DNA from: Escherichia coli
GTDB taxonomy: Bacteria; Pseudomonadota; Gammaproteobacteria; Enterobacterales; Enterobacteriaceae
Assembly: GCF_030384885.1 (NCBI RefSeq)
Contig: NZ_CP128613.1
Strand: one strand, 5' to 3'
DNA: 64,000 nucleotides
Part shown: piece by piece, positions 54,821 to 63,828 of the stretch
Layout: the number at the start of each line of letters is the position of its first letter
Numbering within the stretch: the stretch's first letter is position 1
Notes under the pieces: model-generated
Told to the model about the DNA's origin: nothing
Database searches by the model: none
What the model saw: the letters and a program-made list of their open reading frames with translations, nothing else
Program-made: the position numbers and the translations under genes

Positions 54821-54865
54821 GGAGAATGTGGTTGACTTAAAAACGAGGAAACTTATTGATTTAAA

Positions 54866-54911
54866 TGGTGCCGATAATAGGAGTCGAACCTACGACCTTC
54901 GCATTACGAAT
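54866..54911 (-). other. thrW: 46-nt 3' fragment of tRNA-Thr(CGU) thrW: prophage attachment-site copy (attR of the prophage to the right)
   Basis: The reverse complement reads ATTCGTAATGCGAAGGTCGTAGGTTCGACTCCTATTATCGGCACCA. That is the anticodon loop to the CCA end of thrW as I recall it. The 5' half of the tRNA is absent. Confidence 0.8.
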
Positions 54912-55351: not shown

Positions 55352-56695
55352 TCATTTCTTTGCCGCGCTTTTATTGCACTTCTTACAGCCTTCAATCAAT
55401 TTTTCAGTTATTATATAATAATAAGGAATGTAAATGTTTAACCCGCAAGTTTTAATCGAATCGAAAGCAAGAACTTTCACAATGGATTCTTCTCCATCTT
55501 TCTCCATTAGCAATATATCACTTAAAGGCAAATCATTAGGATTGTAAATCCTCACATCGCCAGGCTGTCTTTCATAGGCTTCGATGTCATCACCTGGTTG
55601 GCCATAGGCTAAATGAGTGGCTTTAATCCAGTTTATTGGTTCAGCATTTTGACACCAGGAGATTATTTTTTCTAATTTTTCAGGTGTGTAAGCTTTTACA
55701 TAATCTCCATGTTTTTCACATCTACCTAGTTCTGAAAAATGGCCCAGGGTGTATTCATAAGAATAATCACCAGCAGTCAATGGTAGTCTAAAGTATTGCT
55801 GAGGCAATGCCTTCTGGACTTTGGTTTTACTCAGCAAATTAAAGGTGATATCATAAAGTTGATATAGACAAACACCCTCTCGATCTGGATATCCATAAGG
55901 CTTGATGTCAGAAAGCATCTCAATATCAGAATTATAAACACTTGCATAATCATCACTTCCAAACATGAAAAAACCTTTTGATAGAATGAATATTGCATTA
56001 GGAAGAACGTTTTTTTCAAAATTCTGCGAGTGAGTTTTTATTTCTTGTACTATGTCCATCCAATCCATATCAGTATCATAGGCGAAGATAATTCCAAAAC
56101 CATTAGTCTGAATTCTCTCCTCTGAATGTATAAATATGTTCTGATTTATACCATGTTTCTTTAGTTTTTTGAATGAGCGGATATTTTCGAAAGCACTTTT
56201 CAGTTCTTTTTTTGTTAGTTTTGACTTAACCTGAATCACACCATAGCAGTACTCCACAGGTAAAACCTCAAAAATTTCCTGTCGCTGCATAAGCGAAAAT
56301 GAATTAAAAGCATCATAAAAAAGAATGTCGATTTCATTACTGAGATGTCCTGAGGTTGACGCTACACGGACACTTGATTTTGAGATGGCATAGCTTTGCG
56401 GTAAGAGTTTATTTTCATTGAAAAAGCATCTTAAGAGTTCCTCTCTGACAGTACCAACATCTCTTGGATGCTTAATATCTTTCGATATTTCAAAATCTTG
56501 AAGCATTTTCCTCTGTAAGTGAATGAACTCCCTTTCAAGACCATAAAATTCTTTATCTTTAGATCTCAGTTTGCTTGCACGAGAAACTTGATCGGATATC
56601 CATTCCTTTGTGCGAGACTCTCTCTCAGCAAAATCATCACGTTGTTTTTTTACAGCACCGGTCAAGCGTTTTCTTGTGTTTTCATTATCGGACAT
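55352..56695 (-). CDS. Orphan 447-aa protein with a restriction-endonuclease-like (PD-(D/E)xK-type) core; candidate defence gene
   Basis: A long ORF in visibly AT-rich DNA, with AAGG 8 nt before the ATG. No hydrophobic segments. Residues about 76-160 read HPRDVGTVREELLRCFF...GHLSNEIDILFYD...YGVIQVKSKL, which fits the helix-E / strand-D / (E/Q)xK layout. I recall the same layout from DUF6602-type proteins; this is unverified. Confidence 0.75.
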   Translation of the reverse strand: MSDNENTRKRLTGAVKKQRDDFAERESRTKEWISDQVSRASKLRSKDKEFYGLEREFIHLQRKMLQDFEISKDIKHPRDVGTVREELLRCFFNENKLLPQSYAISKSSVRVASTSGHLSNEIDILFYDAFNSFSLMQRQEIFEVLPVEYCYGVIQVKSKLTKKELKSAFENIRSFKKLKKHGINQNIFIHSEERIQTNGFGIIFAYDTDMDWMDIVQEIKTHSQNFEKNVLPNAIFILSKGFFMFGSDDYASVYNSDIEMLSDIKPYGYPDREGVCLYQLYDITFNLLSKTKVQKALPQQYFRLPLTAGDYSYEYTLGHFSELGRCEKHGDYVKAYTPEKLEKIISWCQNAEPINWIKATHLAYGQPGDDIEAYERQPGDVRIYNPNDLPLSDILLMEKDGEESIVKVLAFDSIKTCGLNIYIPYYYIITEKLIEGCKKCNKSAAKK

Positions 56696-57004: not shown

Positions 57005-57215
57005 TCACATTATAATGTGAGCAATGTCCGCTCCTAGCACATAGCAGTTCTAGAGACAATGGCGTAAAGTCATGGAGAATCGGTGGGAGGATATTCAGTT
57101 TCATTCATGCCGAAATACGGTAAAATCTATAACAGATAGAAATCATTCAATATTCGCACTATCAGAAGCTGGCCAGCCAACCGCGCACGATTTTGCATAC
57201 GACATGCTACGGTTT
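57005..57215. repeat. Non-coding segment B, paralogous to 52845-53045
   Basis: See segment A. B begins at the palindrome TCACATTATAATGTGA (57005-57020) and ends at the stop codon of the pin remnant. Confidence 0.6.
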
Positions 57216-57556
57216 CATTTATCTCCGACCGGAAACTTCTTATACAGTGTCGATACACCAACATCATAGATGATCTCCACCTTCTGGCGAGGAACGCCTG
57301 ATGCAATTAATCGCCCGGCCTGCGCCCTTTGTTCTGGTGTAAGTTTGGGACGACGTCCACCAATTCGTCCCTGTGCGCGAGCAACTTCCAGTCCAGCTTT
57401 TGTTCGTTCAACAATCAGTTCTCGTTCCATTTCAGCCAGGGCACCCATCACATGAAAGAAAAAACGCCCCATCGGTGTGCTGGTATCAATAGCATCCGTC
57501 AGGCTGCGAAAATTAACGCCACGTTCGCGCAACTCCTCAACCAGAATGACCAGATG
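57215..57556 (-). pseudogene. pin: Pin/Gin/Hin-type serine DNA invertase, C-terminal two thirds only
   Basis: HLVILVEELRERGVNFRSLTDAIDTSTPMGRFFFHVMGALAEMERELIVERTKAGL...STLYKKFPVGDK aligns with Pin from about residue 75. The N-terminal catalytic Ser region is missing. Confidence 0.8.
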
Positions 57557-57814
57557 GACAAGCGTGCCGGGACCGGGTTTATTCAGCGCTTCAATCAGGC
57601 GATCGCGCTGGTCAAAGCAGTCATCTCCCACCACATAAGCTGTGATGGACGGGCGGAAAGTGACTTTTCCCAGATCTTCGGTATAGGGCTTGTCGCGGTT
57701 CGGGTATTCATGTGTTTCCACACGGCGACCGGTTCCCGCACTTTCTTCTTCAACCTTAAACGGCACACCTCGAAATGACGCATCCTGAAGCCTGTCTTTC
57801 CACGTCATATACAC
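57557..57814 (-). pseudogene. Mu N-like DNA circularisation (tail/baseplate) protein, N-terminal ~86 codons fused in frame to the pin remnant
   Basis: W.DRLQDASFRGVPF...HEYPNRDKPYTEDLGK...GDDCFDQRDRLIEALNKPGPGTLVH matches the DNA-circulation N-terminal domain pattern. The ORF continues directly into invertase sequence. Confidence 0.75.
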
Positions 57815-57823
57815 TCCGAAAAT

Positions 57824-57850
57824 AAAAAAGCCACCTATTAGAAGGTGGCC
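57824..57850 (-). terminator. Rho-independent terminator of the 176-aa gene
   Basis: On the minus strand: GCCACCT-TCTAAT-AGGTGGC followed by TTTTTT, starting 20 nt after the stop codon. Confidence 0.75.
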
Positions 57851-57869
57851 TTGTAATGAATTTTATTAA

Positions 57870-58400
57870 TTAGCGAGTCAGAAACAACGAATCTTTATAC
57901 TTTTGCTGTTGTTCATTTAAATACTTAGCTGTTTCATCGCTGGCAAATGGAAATATTACCGTATTTTTAGGCATGGTAATTTCTTTTTTGTCCAGCGTCA
58001 GAGTAAACATAGGAACATACTGAGCAGAGTAACGCACCGCAGAAACGAGCTCTAGTTTAGACTCTTCAATAACACTTAAATTATCCAGGCTAACTTTCTC
58101 TTCATCTTTTTTCTTTGACGCATTTAAAGTTTTTATTACTTTATTTAATTTCTCCTGAAAATCCTCCTTAAAGTTTTCAGGATTGCCGTCGACAACAAGA
58201 ATCTGTTCACCCTGATTATCTGGAAAAATAATCTTTGCACTTATCAATTTATTTTCTTTATAAACATCACCAAGTTTTATGGCTCCTCCAGATAACTGAA
58301 TAATATGTTCATCTTTAAAGGAGATGTTGCCAGAGATTATGAGAGATGAAAAAATAGCCGCTGCTCCAAGAATTACACTTGCTGTGATATAGCCTTTCAT
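57870..58400 (-). CDS. Membrane-anchored 176-aa protein of unknown function (prophage moron)
   Basis: AT-rich ORF with one N-terminal hydrophobic helix (ITASVILGAAAIFSSLIISG) and a Lys/Glu-rich soluble domain. It has its own terminator and is inserted between tail-gene remnants. Confidence 0.65.
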   Translation of the reverse strand: MKGYITASVILGAAAIFSSLIISGNISFKDEHIIQLSGGAIKLGDVYKENKLISAKIIFPDNQGEQILVVDGNPENFKEDFQEKLNKVIKTLNASKKKDEEKVSLDNLSVIEESKLELVSAVRYSAQYVPMFTLTLDKKEITMPKNTVIFPFASDETAKYLNEQQQKYKDSLFLTR

Positions 58401-58491
58401 TTTTCGCCTATTAACATTTTTCTAAATGTGCATTAATTCTATCACTCTATTTATGACTTACAACCAGCAATACATGTGAGGGGAATCCTGG

Positions 58492-58729
58492 CTACCAAAA
58501 TCGGGTATAGCCAACATCGTGATTTATATCAATGCCACTGGAGCGTGTTTCCGTAACCCGCATACCTGGTGGCATATTTATAAATGATACCTTGATCTCA
58601 CCATCAACTTTTGGCGCGGTAGCTTTATTAATCATGAAGGGATTCGGGCCTGTGGCATCGGAGGCGTTGTTTGCCTGAGCCGGATCCACCGCCGGATAAG
58701 GAGTGTATCCCCGTGCCGGTATTCCCGTC
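58492..58729 (-). pseudogene. Phage tail protein C-terminal remnant (possibly tape measure)
   Basis: The frame ...YTPYPAVDPAQANNASDATGPNPFMINKATAPKVDGEIKVSFINMPPGMRVTETRSSGIDINHDVGYTRFW* ends upstream of the Mu N-like gene, where Mu-type tails place the tape-measure 3' end. The assignment is positional only. Confidence 0.3.
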
Positions 58730-59816: not shown

Positions 59817-61550
59817 TTAAAGCGAGCGGATCCCGTAGGACTCAATGTGGTCAGACAGCGTGTCTTCTTTCTCGTACAGCATGGCTCTGCCAACCGCCAT
59901 AATCAGCGCAACTGCACCATCGATTTTGTTTTCCGCCTGCTCTTTGACGGGTTTCACCACATCATCGTTACCCGGAATGGTTTTGCCGACCACGTTGCCG
60001 ATACACCAGGTCATGATGGGATTGCCGTCATGATGAAAGCGCCCCGATTCAATTGCCGCTTCCAGCTCTTTCATCGGGTCGGACATGTTGGTGTAGTTCT
60101 GAATGATAGTGATGGGGTTCAGGTCTTCATCAGCAAGGTCATGTGACAACCCGGTCGCCCCGAAGGGGTCGATGGGTGACTCACTGACCGGGCTGATTTT
60201 GTTCGCCGCTTTGGCCTCCTCGAGGATGTAGCGATAATCCACCTCCGCACCATCGGTAACGGTCAGAACGCCCATTTCCACCCATTTCTGAAAGCGTTCG
60301 GCTGTCCGTCGATCTTCATTTTTCTCGACGCTGTACACCGTGTCATACGGTACCCAGAAACGCGGGGCCACACTGTAGTAATGCGTTTTACCGTCAATCT
60401 CGCGGGTATAAAGTCGCGCCATGCTGTTCATATCCAGCTTACGCGCCAGGTCAAAGGCCAGAATGCACGGCTGCCCCTCGAACTGCTCAAGAGTCAGTGA
60501 TTTATCCTCGCATCTCTGCCAGCTCACCAGGTTGAAATACGCCGAACGCGCCGACACCCAGATATTGAGGTGTTTTGTTTTAAAGACGTTTGCCAGACGG
60601 GCGTTATTTTTCGCACGTTGCTGCTGGCTTAACAAAAACTCGCGATAAACCGACACACCGATATTCGGGTTAGCTTTTTCAAGTACCTGCGGGTCGGTCC
60701 AGTCGTCGCCTTCGTCAACGGTATAGATGATCCCGAACAGTTCATCGTTGGGCACCGAGCCGTTGAGCATCTCGATGACTTCCCGCCGTTTGTCGTAGCA
60801 CGGCCCCTCAATGTTGTACCCGGCGGTGGTAATGGCCCACATCAGTGGCTGGCGTCGCGCCCCCATCCCGGTAAGCATCGTGGTGTAAAGCGCATCTGTG
60901 GCGTGCTCGTGATATTCATCCACCACCGCACAGTGGGGTGATGAACCATCACCGGGGTTACCGATCAGCGGTTCAAACCGCGCACCATCCTCCGGACGGT
61001 TCATGTTTGAGGCGTTAACCTCAATCCCGAACGCTTCCGTCAGCATGGGTGTGCGTTTACACATCAGTCGTGCCGGACGAAAGACTTCCCATGCCTGTTT
61101 CTCCGTCGTGGCACCGGAATACACTTCCGCGCCGAACTCGTTATCACAGGCAAAACAATACAGGGCGACACCGGCAGAGATTGCCGATTTGCCGTTCTTA
61201 CGGGGGATTTCGGTATACACCTCACGGAAGCGGCGCAGCCGGGAGCCTTTATTGACCCAGCCAAACGCGCAGCAGATCACAAAGAGCTGCCACGGCTCCA
61301 GCGTGATGGGCATCCTCTTAAATGCCCACTCACCCTTGGTGTGCGGCAACAGCTGAATAAATTTCGCGGCCCGTTCAGCCAGGTCCTTGTCGAAGCGGTA
61401 ACGAAACGACTTACTTTTTTCCTCCATCAGGTCATCAAGATGGCGCTGGCAGGCCTGAATCACAAACTGGCAGGCCACAATCTTTCCGTGCACGACATCA
61501 CGGGCATACTGATTGGCAGCATTTACGTTGGGGTAAGATTTCCGGCTCAT
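59817..61550 (-). CDS. Terminase large subunit
   Basis: 577-aa ORF with an ATPase Walker A-like motif (PRKNGKS) and a nuclease C-terminal domain. Located between terS and the portal gene. Confidence 0.88.
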
Positions 61551-62517: not shown

Positions 62518-63041
62518 ATGTACTCCAATGAAGAAACCAGCGAAATAGCTGCCTTCATTCGTAGTAAACCTTTTTCATCAACGCAGTAATGGATTCTTTG
62601 AAGAGTCGCGATCAATACAACTCACTAATGGAGAGACTTGTCTCACGCATGAGACAAATTTCCCGTTTGATTTAATGGACACTATAGAGGGACAGAATGC
62701 CTTCCTCACTCGAATCACATCAATTAAGGAGGTTCAACATGTTTCATTCCACAAGTCATCAGGCTGTAATTATGGCAGCATCAGTTTGTGCCAAAGACCT
62801 TTTCCGCTTCACTTTGAGCCTGATTCATTTCTACCTGACCGGCTCGCCTCTATCTTTTTAATCCCCGCTTTATCCAAATTGCATTGCCATAATGCCGACA
62901 ACACACTGACATTCAAATCCAGACTACCTCCAATAGTCTGACCGTACACCTATATAGTTTTAATTTTCATCAATCCATTTAACTATCGTTTAATTGTTGT
63001 CACATAGGATTCTGCCGTTTTTAACAATGCAGGATAATAAG

Positions 63042-63335
63042 ATGAAAAAAATGTTGTTTTCTGCCGCTCTGGCAATGCTTATTACAGGATGTGCTCAACA
63101 GACGTTTACTGTTGGAAACAAACCGACAGCAGTAACACCAAAAGAAACCATCACCCATCATTTCTTCGTTTCGGGAATTGGACAGGAGAAAACTGTTGAT
63201 GCAGCCAAAATTTGTGGCGGCGCAGAAAATGTTGTTAAAACAGAAACCCAGCAAACATTCGTAAATGGATTGCTCGGTTTTATTACTTTAGGCATTTATA
63301 CTCCGCTGGAAGCGCGTGTGTATTGCTCACAATAA
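63042..63335 (+). CDS. bor: Bor lipoprotein (serum resistance)
   Basis: 97 aa from MKKMLFSAALAMLITGC (lipobox). Near-identical to lambda Bor as I recall it, and on the strand opposite the lysis genes as in lambda. Confidence 0.92.
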   Translation: MKKMLFSAALAMLITGCAQQTFTVGNKPTAVTPKETITHHFFVSGIGQEKTVDAAKICGGAENVVKTETQQTFVNGLLGFITLGIYTPLEARVYCSQ

Positions 63336-63366: not shown

Positions 63367-63828
63367 CTATCTGCACTGCTCATTAATATACTTCTGGGTT
63401 CCTTCCAGTTGTTTTTGCATCGTGATCAGCCTCTCTCTGAGGGTGAAATAATCCCGTTCAGCGGTGTCTGCCAGTCGGGGGGAGGCTGCATTATCCACGC
63501 CGGAGGCGGTGGTGGCTTCACGCACTGACTGACAGACTGCTTTGATGTGCAACCGACGACGACCAGCGGCAACATCATCACGCAGAGCATCATTTTCAGC
63601 TTTCGCATCAGCTAACTCCTTCGTGTATTTTGCATCGAGCGCAGCAACATCACGCTGACGCATCTGCATGTCAGTAATTGCCACGTTCGCCAGCTTCAGT
63701 TCTCTGGCATTTTTGTCGCGCTGGGCTTTGTATGTAATGGCGTTATCACGGTAATGATTAACCGCCCATGACAGACAGACGATGATGCAGATAACCAGAG
63801 CGGAGATAATCGCGGTTAATCTGTTCAT
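63367..63828 (-). CDS. Rz: i-spanin Rz
   Basis: 153-aa ORF with an N-terminal TM and a coiled coil. Matches lambda Rz. Confidence 0.92.
63426..63608 (-). CDS. Rz1: o-spanin Rz1 (embedded in Rz in the +1 frame)
   Basis: 60-aa ORF with lipobox VVGC and a proline-rich body. Matches lambda Rz1 and lies entirely inside Rz. Confidence 0.9.

What the first reader, a model, noticed from the sequence alone, without database searches (positions are those of the whole stretch)
57824..58491. Self-contained AT-rich moron encoding a membrane-anchored 176-aa protein, inserted between tail-gene remnants
Seen in the sequence: a 176-aa ORF with one N-terminal TM helix and a Lys/Glu-rich extracytoplasmic or cytoplasmic domain. 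Its composition is strongly AT-rich compared with the adjacent phage genes. About 90 nt of spacer lies upstream, and a textbook rho-independent terminator (57824-57850) lies immediately downstream.

It sits between what looks like the 3' end of a tail gene and the Mu N-like gene, which in Mu-type tail modules are normally adjacent. An independent promoter/terminator cassette of foreign composition inside a late operon is the classical moron architecture. Such membrane-anchored morons are often superinfection-exclusion or host-interaction factors. I recognise no family.
Basis: partly seen in the sequence, partly recalled or inferred. Interest (0 to 1): 0.55.

Follow-up and report, generated by a model that had tools for sequence, protein, structure and literature searches.

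The report
Membrane-anchored moron in a tail-gene hotspot
A decayed E. coli prophage still carries an intact AT-rich add-on gene ("moron") for a protein of unknown function anchored in the inner membrane and probably facing the periplasm. It sits in a tail-gene slot where related phages carry nothing or a different small gene, usually for another envelope protein, and its most likely, untested, job is to block infection by other phages.

Summary
Window 57870-58400 (-) is a real 176-aa gene with 34% GC against 52-58% in its flanks. It has a 91-nt upstream spacer and a strong hairpin plus U-run immediately downstream. It lies between a tape-measure (TMP) 3' stub and a Mu N-like (DNA_circ_N) 5' stub.

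The moron reading is supported.
- In SfV, SfI, SfII and most SfV-like E. coli prophages, TMP and N are adjacent.
- About 16% carry this gene in the slot. Others carry one of four unrelated small genes, three of them with envelope-targeting signals.
- Homologues at 59-30% identity occupy the same slot, or another myovirus baseplate slot. All are AT-rich and followed by a hairpin.

The protein has no Pfam, NCBIfam, PADLOC or PDB match. Its only family is PHROG 5485, of unknown function. The AlphaFold model (pLDDT 91) shows an N-terminal TM helix and a roughly 150-aa alpha/beta domain. Charge distribution and a remote lipoprotein homologue in a lytic Pseudomonas phage place that domain in the periplasm.

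Function is inferred, not shown. Superinfection exclusion at the DNA-entry step, as with HK97 gp15, is the best guess.

The window's prophage has two deletions that remove the head and tail genes and leave this gene on a 1.2-kb island.

Verdict: a new, uncharacterised member of a known kind. Interest is moderate.

The parts
57870..58400 (-). 176-aa cargo gene. It encodes an N-terminal signal-anchor TM helix (aa 3-22) and a roughly 150-aa alpha/beta domain. It belongs to PHROG 5485, of unknown function.
   Evidence: Polymorphism across 78 E. coli loci gives pN/pS of 0.23.
58436..58463 (-). Candidate sigma-70 promoter, TTGTAA-16 nt-TAGAAT, with TG just upstream (extended -10). The -10 hexamer lies about 41 nt before the ATG.
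   Evidence: This is a consensus match only and is not above shuffle expectation. A similarly placed 11-of-12 site exists in homologue L092.
58401..58491 (-). 91-nt AT-rich spacer between the TMP stop codon and the cargo ATG. It marks the left edge of the exchangeable cassette.
57827..57852 (-). Intrinsic-terminator hairpin. Its U-run continues into the ribosome-binding region of the N gene. The stem is specific to this cassette, while the T-run and RBS are shared backbone.
58492..58728 (-). 3' stub of the tape-measure gene. The last ~53 codons (58492-58650) match TMP models. The stub is joined at 58728/58729 to the 5' two-thirds of the portal gene.
   Evidence: The junction has a 2-bp overlap, and 8.2 kb is deleted relative to L098.
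57215..57808 (-). Fusion ORF of 197 aa from the ATG at 57808. It combines DNA_circ_N residues 1-86 with the C-terminal part of a Pin-type invertase, joined at 57555/57556.
   Evidence: 7.2 kb is deleted relative to L098.

Best explanation
This is a moron cassette sitting in a cargo hotspot between the tape-measure gene and the Mu-N-like hub/DNA-circularisation gene of an SfV-type lambdoid myovirus prophage.

**Shown**
- It is an optional, compositionally foreign, single-gene insert with sharply defined boundaries.
- The gene is under purifying selection.
- It is followed by its own hairpin terminator.
- It belongs to a family of about 77 sequence clusters of ~175-aa proteins that recur in contractile-tail modules.

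**Inferred**
- In a lysogen the Q-dependent late operon is silent. The gene is then transcribed from its own sigma-70 promoter in the 91-nt spacer and stopped at the hairpin before N.
- During lytic growth, Q-modified polymerase reads through the hairpin.
- The N-terminal helix inserts as an uncleaved signal anchor (N-in, C-out), displaying the alpha/beta domain in the periplasm.

**Most likely role (inferred, about 0.4)**
Superinfection exclusion after adsorption. The periplasmic domain would interfere with the tail tip, tape-measure protein or inner-membrane step that an incoming phage needs to deliver DNA. HK97 gp15 does this from the equivalent position next to a tape-measure gene.

Retention on a 1.2-kb island between two deletions in a dead prophage fits a host-beneficial function. 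The confidence given applies to the whole statement including the function. The moron and periplasmic-anchor part alone is about 0.85.
For: **Optional insert**
- Megablast with both flanks found matches in 1095 E. coli genomes. Only 171 hold this cargo.
- In an evenly spaced sample of 49 rows with both flanks, 28 slots are empty, 10 hold this gene and 11 hold four other cargoes.
- SfV, SfI and SfII have TMP and N adjacent.
- Boundaries are identical for all cargoes: the last TMP codons on one side, and the T-run plus RBS of N on the other.

**Composition and homologues**
- GC is 31-37% against 47-58% in the flanks, in the window and in homologues at 59, 53, 41, 35, 33 and 30% identity. Each is followed by a hairpin and T-run.
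- Intact prophages carry the gene in the same place (L001, L098, Leclercia).

**Real gene**
- 14 synonymous against 12 non-synonymous polymorphic sites give pN/pS of 0.23.
- 77 representative clusters are nearly all 165-195 aa.

**Topology**
- 61 of 63 members have a strongly hydrophobic N-terminal segment.
- 60 of 63 have a more positive N-flank than C-flank.
- The AlphaFold model with pLDDT 90.8 has a helix at residues 3-22.
- A remote homologue in Pseudomonas phage ventosus replaces the helix with a lipobox. Foldseek gives E 1.2e-6 and TM 0.54/0.64. hhalign gives E 1.3e-4, starting just after the lipobox Cys.

**Envelope theme of the hotspot**
- Three of the four other cargoes carry a TM helix, a signal peptide or a lipobox.

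**Other support**
- One distant member follows a Lipoprotein_Ltp gene. Ltp is a known exclusion lipoprotein family.
- Moron definition and the gp15 precedent: PMC3594210.
- Promoter candidates.
- A Q antiterminator is present in the intact relative.
Against: - There is no expression or phenotype data.
- The promoter is only a consensus match, no better than shuffles, and no convincing candidate exists in 4 of 7 homologous loci.
- A terminator also exists in the empty slot, so it is not by itself proof of an autonomous unit.
- Cargo identity roughly tracks tail-module divergence, and one homologue overlaps the upstream baseplate gene by 4 nt. Both are also compatible with a phage-cycle role tied to the tail.
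- The retention argument rests on one clonal lineage.
Confidence: 0.42

Rival explanations
1. Envelope immunity or fitness factor that is not aimed at phages. The periplasmic domain would protect against periplasm-acting toxins such as T6SS effectors, colicins or muralytic enzymes, or against envelope stress. This would be lysogenic conversion in the manner of Bor, Lom or Cor's colicin M protection.
For: - The topology is periplasm-facing and membrane-tethered.
- One distant member lies next to a Rap1a gene, a family of T6SS immunity proteins.
- Others sit in chromosomal, non-tail contexts.
- The gene is retained in a dead prophage.
Against: - The Rap1a neighbour is a single short contig and is on the opposite strand.
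- No effector gene is paired with the family in any of the tail-module loci.
- An inner-membrane anchor does not suit surface functions such as serum resistance or adhesion.
- Most members with usable context sit in phage tail modules.
Confidence: 0.2
2. A late-expressed accessory phage function tied to the contractile tail. Examples would be helping tail-tip or TMP handling at the membrane during assembly, lysis or the next infection. It would be expressed by read-through of the late operon rather than from the prophage.
For: - The family recurs at the TMP|hub junction at 59-30% identity, and in another baseplate operon.
- Its divergence roughly tracks that of N and the hub protein.
- In L100 it overlaps the upstream baseplate gene by 4 nt, so there is no spacer for a promoter.
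- Promoter evidence is weak overall.
Against: - Viable phages SfV, SfI and SfII lack it, as do most SfV-like prophages. Unrelated genes replace it, including one on the opposite strand.
- A membrane-anchored periplasmic protein is not a plausible virion or cytoplasmic assembly component.
- The strong AT bias is kept over deep divergence, unlike the neighbouring tail genes.
- It stays intact in a prophage that has lost its tail genes.
Confidence: 0.12
3. Selectively neutral passenger. The cassette would be hitch-hiking DNA that spreads by recombination between conserved flanks and has no function in the cell.
For: - No function or known domain is recognised.
- One of 79 E. coli alleles is frameshifted (L084).
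Against: - pN/pS is 0.23.
- Length and motifs are conserved across 77 clusters down to about 20% identity.
- The family alignment supports a confident fold.
Confidence: 0.05

Closest known systems
HK97 gp15 moron (Juhala et al. 2000; Cumby et al. 2012; reviewed in PMC3594210)
   Same: - It is a single extra gene inside the tail operon, next to the tape-measure gene.
- Its composition is foreign and it is read as having its own promoter and terminator.
- The product inserts in the inner membrane.
- It excludes superinfecting phages after adsorption in a way that depends on the incoming phage's tail region.
   Different: - gp15 is a small protein of the YebO family. This protein is 176 aa with a folded ~150-aa periplasmic domain and no YebO or other Pfam match.
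- It sits after the TMP gene rather than before it.
- The host phage has a contractile tail, whereas HK97 is a siphovirus.
- No phenotype has been tested for this gene.
Membrane-tethered exclusion proteins of other phages: T5 Llp and phi80/N15 Cor (lipoproteins blocking FhuA), TP-J34 Ltp (lipoprotein blocking TMP-dependent DNA entry), T4 Imm and Sp, P22 SieA
   Same: - They are small proteins acting at the envelope, anchored by a lipid or a TM helix and facing the periplasm or outer surface.
- They are expressed from the prophage or early in infection.
- The family here occurs with either type of anchor: a TM helix in enterobacterial prophages and a lipobox in lytic Pseudomonas phage ventosus.
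   Different: - The comparison is by architecture only. The properties listed for these proteins are from established knowledge and PMC3594210/PMC10883804.
Cargo/defence hotspots at fixed positions in temperate phage genomes (e.g. P2 and P4 hotspots, Rousset et al. 2022, cited from memory)
   Same: The junction is fixed between conserved genes, and unrelated AT-rich cargo genes alternate among otherwise near-identical phages.
   Different: - The cargoes here are single small genes. Four of five are envelope-targeted, and none of the five matches a PADLOC defence model.
- The slot lies inside the late tail operon.
- I found no paper describing this slot.
PHROG 5485 (and PHROG 34391, the N-terminal 106 aa)
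   Same: The match is full length, 176 of 176 positions, E 3.8e-108. This is the family.
   Different: The PHROG carries no function annotation.

Membership tests
Moron (Hendrix/Juhala definition) | Extra gene between two genes that are adjacent in related phages | tested here: met
   TMP and N are adjacent in SfV, SfI and SfII, and in 28 of 49 sampled E. coli prophages.
Moron (Hendrix/Juhala definition) | Nucleotide composition different from the neighbouring genes | tested here: met
   GC is 34% against 52-58% in the flanks. The same contrast appears in six diverged homologous loci.
Moron (Hendrix/Juhala definition) | Own terminator downstream | tested here: met
   A hairpin of -15.6 kcal/mol (z -3.9) is followed by a U-run. 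The stem sequence is cassette-specific. Caveat: the empty slot also has a terminator.
Moron (Hendrix/Juhala definition) | Own promoter upstream | tested here: inconclusive
   The window has a 9-of-12 match plus an extended -10 TG. L092 has an 11-of-12 match at the same distance from the ATG, and L013 has an extended -10. L002 and L100 have none, and L094 and L099 only weak extended -10-like matches. Match counts are not above shuffles.
Moron (Hendrix/Juhala definition) | Expressed from the repressed prophage | not testable with these tools
   This needs RNA-seq or 5'-RACE of a lysogen.
HK97 gp15 / YebO family | Sequence membership in the YebO-like family | tested here: not met
   The Pfam-A scan at E<=1 returned no family for this protein. 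None of the 25 most frequently matched families listed for the 63 members was YebO.
HK97 gp15 / YebO family | Blocks DNA entry of superinfecting phage without blocking the receptor | not testable with these tools
   This needs plating, adsorption and DNA-entry assays.
Known exclusion/lysogenic-conversion envelope proteins with Pfam models (Ltp, Bor, Lom/Ail, T4 Imm) | Match to the family profile | tested here: not met
   [not shown]
PHROG 5485 | Full-length profile match | tested here: met
   E 3.8e-108, covering residues 1-176 of a 176-position profile.
Tail structural/assembly protein of Mu/SfV-type tails | Present in all functional phages with this tail module | tested here: not met
   It is absent from SfV, SfI, SfII and vB_EcoM-689R6. 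tblastn of the protein against 50,697 phage records gave no match.

The most novel reading that the evidence does not exclude
The family could be a previously unrecognised class of periplasmic, membrane-tethered anti-injection proteins. They would specifically neutralise the tail tip or tape-measure step of contractile-tailed phages, and possibly of tailocins. The TMP|hub junction of Mu/SfV-type tail modules would then be a dedicated hotspot for envelope-level exclusion genes. Bacteria would keep these genes even after the rest of the prophage is deleted.
Probability: 0.25. Interest if true: 0.6.

Novelty: new member of a known kind. Interest (0 to 1): 0.4.

Why it matters
**Testable candidate.** If the inferred role is right, this is a new and easily tested exclusion protein family. 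It is present in about 3% of complete E. coli genomes (178 of 5426) and in Leclercia, Lelliottia and Edwardsiella prophages. That is relevant to phage-therapy host range and to how prophages shape phage susceptibility.

**The slot.** Independently of function, the TMP|N junction is a clean natural cargo slot. It has at least five alternative cargoes and base-precise boundaries. That makes it a convenient place to mine for further envelope-acting phage genes, or to insert payloads into SfV-type phages.

**Composition.** The AT-rich composition persists over divergence down to 30% identity. Low GC here is therefore a maintained property and not just a sign of recent transfer.

Tried and rejected
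**Profile searches**
- Pfam, NCBIfam and PADLOC gave nothing for the protein or for 63 family members.
- A PDB sequence search with the family profile gave only noise, best E 0.2.

**Structure searches**
- The afdb50 Foldseek library was unavailable.

**Phage and genome collections**
- tblastn of the protein against 50,697 phage genomes gave no match. Isolated, sequenced SfV-like phages do not carry it.
- The genome-contig scan recovered only one locus, in Edwardsiella, because of pattern limits.

**RNA and repeats**
- Rfam gave only sub-threshold leader-like hits on the terminator hairpin, which I judge to be chance.
- No direct or inverted repeats flank the cassette, so transposon-type insertion is rejected.

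**Literature**
- Searches for the protein accession, for this slot and for SfV morons found nothing on this gene.
- The Cumby 2012 primary paper is not held.

**Signal peptide or lipoprotein**
- A cleavable signal peptide was considered and rejected. The hydrophobic stretch is about 20 residues, is conserved as a helix, and has no good -3/-1 site after it.
- A lipoprotein was rejected for this protein because it has no Cys at all.

Full report
**1. What is in the window**

The end of the window is E. coli chromosome: ecpD/ecpE, ykgJ and yagU at 50.4-54.3 kb (neighbouring annotations). A prophage follows.
- Its left attachment repeat is at 54850-54911. The same 62 bp occur at both ends of the intact relative in strain HZ13 (L098).
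- Read on the minus strand from the right, it has Rz/Rz1 and a Bor-like gene, an HNH endonuclease, a small terminase and a large terminase (59817-61550).
- Next come ymfR, a portal gene truncated after about 300 codons, the last ~53 codons of a tape-measure gene (TMP) and the 176-aa ORF.
- Then come the first 86 codons of a Mu N-like DNA_circ_N gene fused in frame to the C-terminal part of a Pin invertase.
- The last gene is an AT-rich 447-aa DUF6602 nuclease-like gene.

Aligned to L098, the window has two internal deletions: 7,165 bp (pin to N) and 8,235 bp (TMP to portal). Each junction has a 2-bp overlap, at 57555/6 and 58728/9. Together they leave a 1,175-bp island.

This exact arrangement is in none of 5,426 complete E. 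coli genomes. It is 100% or near-100% identical in three other assemblies or runs. It is therefore real but confined to one lineage.

**2. The observation**

- **ORF.** It is far longer than chance allows in 34% GC sequence: 0 of 2000 shuffles reach 176 codons.
- **Composition.** The gene is 34% GC (GC3 30%). The flanking phage genes are 52-58%.
- **Spacer.** 91 nt lie upstream of the ATG.
- **Terminator.** The hairpin at 57852-57827 is strong (-15.6 kcal/mol, z -3.9) and is followed by a U-run.
- **Other features.** No other ORF of at least 40 aa, no RNA family above threshold and no flanking repeat occupies the interval.

**3. Is it an insert?**

Yes. Megablast of the intact junction from strain MLI107 (L001) finds the flanks in 1,095 E. 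coli genomes and the cargo in only 171.

In an evenly spaced sample of 49 rows with both flanks:

| Slot content | Rows |
|---|---|
| Empty (TMP and N 18-60 nt apart) | 28 |
| This gene | 10 |
| OB-fold (tRNA_anti-like) protein with an N-terminal TM helix, on the opposite strand | 4 |
| 164-aa protein with a signal peptide | 3 |
| bPH_1 domain protein | 2 |
| 225-aa lipoprotein | 2 |

- Phages SfV, SfI, SfII and vB_EcoM-689R6 have the empty form. Phage SKA5 has the 164-aa cargo.
- All forms share the same boundaries. On one side are the last few TMP codons. On the other is the T-run plus ribosome-binding site of N (...TTTTTATATCCGGAGTTTATATG).
- Each cargo brings its own hairpin stem, and the empty slot has a hairpin too (annotated terminator in SfII).
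- All cargoes are AT-rich, at 31-42% GC.

This is a cargo hotspot, and the gene under study is its commonest occupant.

**4. The family**

- **Close relatives.** A word-indexed search found only E. coli copies (99% identity) and 52-59% identical 173-174-aa proteins, those with source names being from Leclercia and Lelliottia.
- **Wider family.** An exhaustive profile search found 77 representative clusters, nearly all 165-195 aa with the same architecture.
- **Known-family searches.** Pfam, NCBIfam, PADLOC and PDB sequence searches are empty. PHROG 5485 (unknown function) matches end to end.
- **Selection.** Within E. coli, 78 loci give 14 synonymous and 12 non-synonymous polymorphic sites, so pN/pS is 0.23. 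One allele is frameshifted.

**5. Context of homologues**

| Locus | Identity to the query | Position |
|---|---|---|
| L092 | 59% | TMP\|x\|N |
| Leclercia L002-L005 | 53% | TMP\|x\|N |
| Edwardsiella L013 | 41% | TMP\|x\|N |
| L094 | 33% | TMP\|x\|N |
| L099 | 30% | Before N, in another remnant |
| L100 | 35% | Unrelated myovirus baseplate operon, between a spike-like gene and the sheath initiator |

- In every one of these loci the gene is 31-37% GC against 47-58% flanks, and a hairpin with a T-run follows it.
- Cargo identity falls in step with N and hub identity: N 67-70% goes with cargo 41-59%, and N 41-44% goes with cargo 30-34%. The association with this tail module is therefore old, and the low GC is maintained rather than a transient mark of recent arrival.
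- More distant members lie elsewhere. One is beside a tRNA gene. One follows a Lipoprotein_Ltp gene. One is next to a Rap1a (T6SS immunity) gene, and one is next to a thioredoxin gene.

**6. Structure and topology**

- With the 63-sequence alignment, AlphaFold gives pLDDT 90.8. The model has a helix at 3-22, beta strands at 32-58 and 69-72, a helix at 74-93, a long beta hairpin at 114-143 and a helix at 149-171.
- Foldseek against viral models finds one significant match, a 144-aa lipoprotein of the lytic Pseudomonas phage ventosus (E 1.2e-6, TM 0.54/0.64). I located that gene at MG018930 51995-52429. It has a lipobox (LLTGC). A profile alignment (E 1.3e-4) starts right after the lipid-modified Cys.
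- The same domain therefore occurs with a TM anchor or a lipid anchor.
- 60 of 63 members have a more positive N-flank than C-flank, and the hydrophobic stretch is about 20 residues long.

Together these point to an uncleaved signal anchor with the domain in the periplasm. This is inferred, not shown.

**7. Expression signals**

- The window has TTGTAA-16-TAGAAT preceded by TG, with the -10 hexamer about 41 nt before the ATG.
- L092 has TTGTCA-16-TATAAT at the same distance, and L013 has TGTTATAAT.
- Four other loci have no convincing site, and the number of matches in each region is no higher than in shuffles.
- The intact relative has a Q-family antiterminator upstream of the late operon.

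The textbook reading is possible but unproven. In that reading the hairpin stops moron transcripts in the lysogen, and Q-modified polymerase reads through it.

**8. Interpretation**

The moron reading is well supported. It meets three of the four sequence criteria, and the promoter criterion is inconclusive.

The gene is absent from functional phages with the same tail, is replaced by unrelated genes, has foreign composition, and encodes a periplasmic membrane protein.

For function I commit to post-adsorption superinfection exclusion, at about 0.4. The reasons are:
- the HK97 gp15 precedent, an inner-membrane moron beside the TMP gene that excludes phages in a tail-dependent way (PMC3594210);
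- the envelope bias of the hotspot's cargoes;
- the lipoprotein homologue in a lytic phage, where a membrane-tethered periplasmic protein is typically an exclusion function (as with T5 Llp; from established knowledge);
- the Ltp neighbour of one distant member;
- survival of the gene between two deletions in a dead prophage.

Rivals are a non-phage envelope immunity or fitness role (0.2), a tail-linked late function (0.12) and a neutral passenger (0.05).

**9. Novelty and score**

Morons, tail-operon morons and exclusion proteins are all known kinds. This family and this hotspot appear to be undescribed in the literature I could search.

It is a new, uncharacterised member of a known kind. It is useful and cheap to test, but not surprising to a specialist. 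Interest is 0.4.

Noticed in passing
window 55352-56695 (-): A 447-aa AT-rich (35% GC) protein with a DUF6602 domain (Pfam 4.6e-23). It also hits the PADLOC models PD_DExK (2e-27) and NucC (1.7e-16). It lies inside the prophage between the att repeat and pin, and is also present in intact relatives (L098). It is a candidate stand-alone defence nuclease.
   Followed up: partly
window 57215-57808 (-) and junctions 57555/6, 58728/9: Two internal deletions, 7.2 kb and 8.2 kb relative to the intact HZ13 prophage L098, each have a 2-bp overlap at the junction. One creates an in-frame fusion of DNA_circ_N residues 1-86 with the C-terminal part of Pin invertase. The other joins the portal gene to the TMP 3' end. 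The arrangement is absent from 5,426 complete E. coli genomes but identical in three other assemblies or runs.
   Followed up: yes
window 54850-54911: A 62-bp sequence is present at both ends of the intact prophage in HZ13 (L098 2479-2540 and 42023-42084). It is the probable att core next to yagU.
   Followed up: partly
L006, L007, L008/L011, L009/L010 (TMP|N slot of other SfV-like prophages and phage SKA5): Four alternative cargo genes sit at exactly the same boundaries. They are a bPH_1 protein (125 aa), a tRNA_anti-like OB-fold protein with a TM helix on the opposite strand (148 aa), a signal-peptide protein (164 aa) and a lipoprotein (225 aa). None matches a PADLOC model, and two have no Pfam family.
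   Followed up: partly
L107 1995-2429 (-) = MG018930 51995-52429, Pseudomonas phage ventosus: A 144-aa lipoprotein (lipobox LLTGC) in a 97-kb lytic phage is a remote structural and sequence homologue of the family. It carries a lipid anchor in place of the TM helix.
   Followed up: partly
L100 4001-4513: A 35%-identical family member sits in a different myovirus baseplate operon, between a spike-like gene and the sheath initiator. It overlaps the upstream gene by 4 nt yet is still 33% GC against about 50%.
   Followed up: partly
L095 1-243; L101 89-418: Distant family members lie next to a Lipoprotein_Ltp-domain gene (Pfam 1.6e-25) and next to a Rap1a (T6SS immunity) gene. Both are on short metagenomic contigs.
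   Followed up: no
window 63035-63335 (+), 63367-63828 (-), 63426-63608 (-): A Bor-like lipoprotein gene and an Rz/Rz1 spanin pair lie at the right edge of the window. Bor is another classical lysogenic-conversion gene in the same prophage.
   Followed up: no
L084 5001-5529: One of 79 E. coli copies of the cargo gene carries a frameshift.
   Followed up: no
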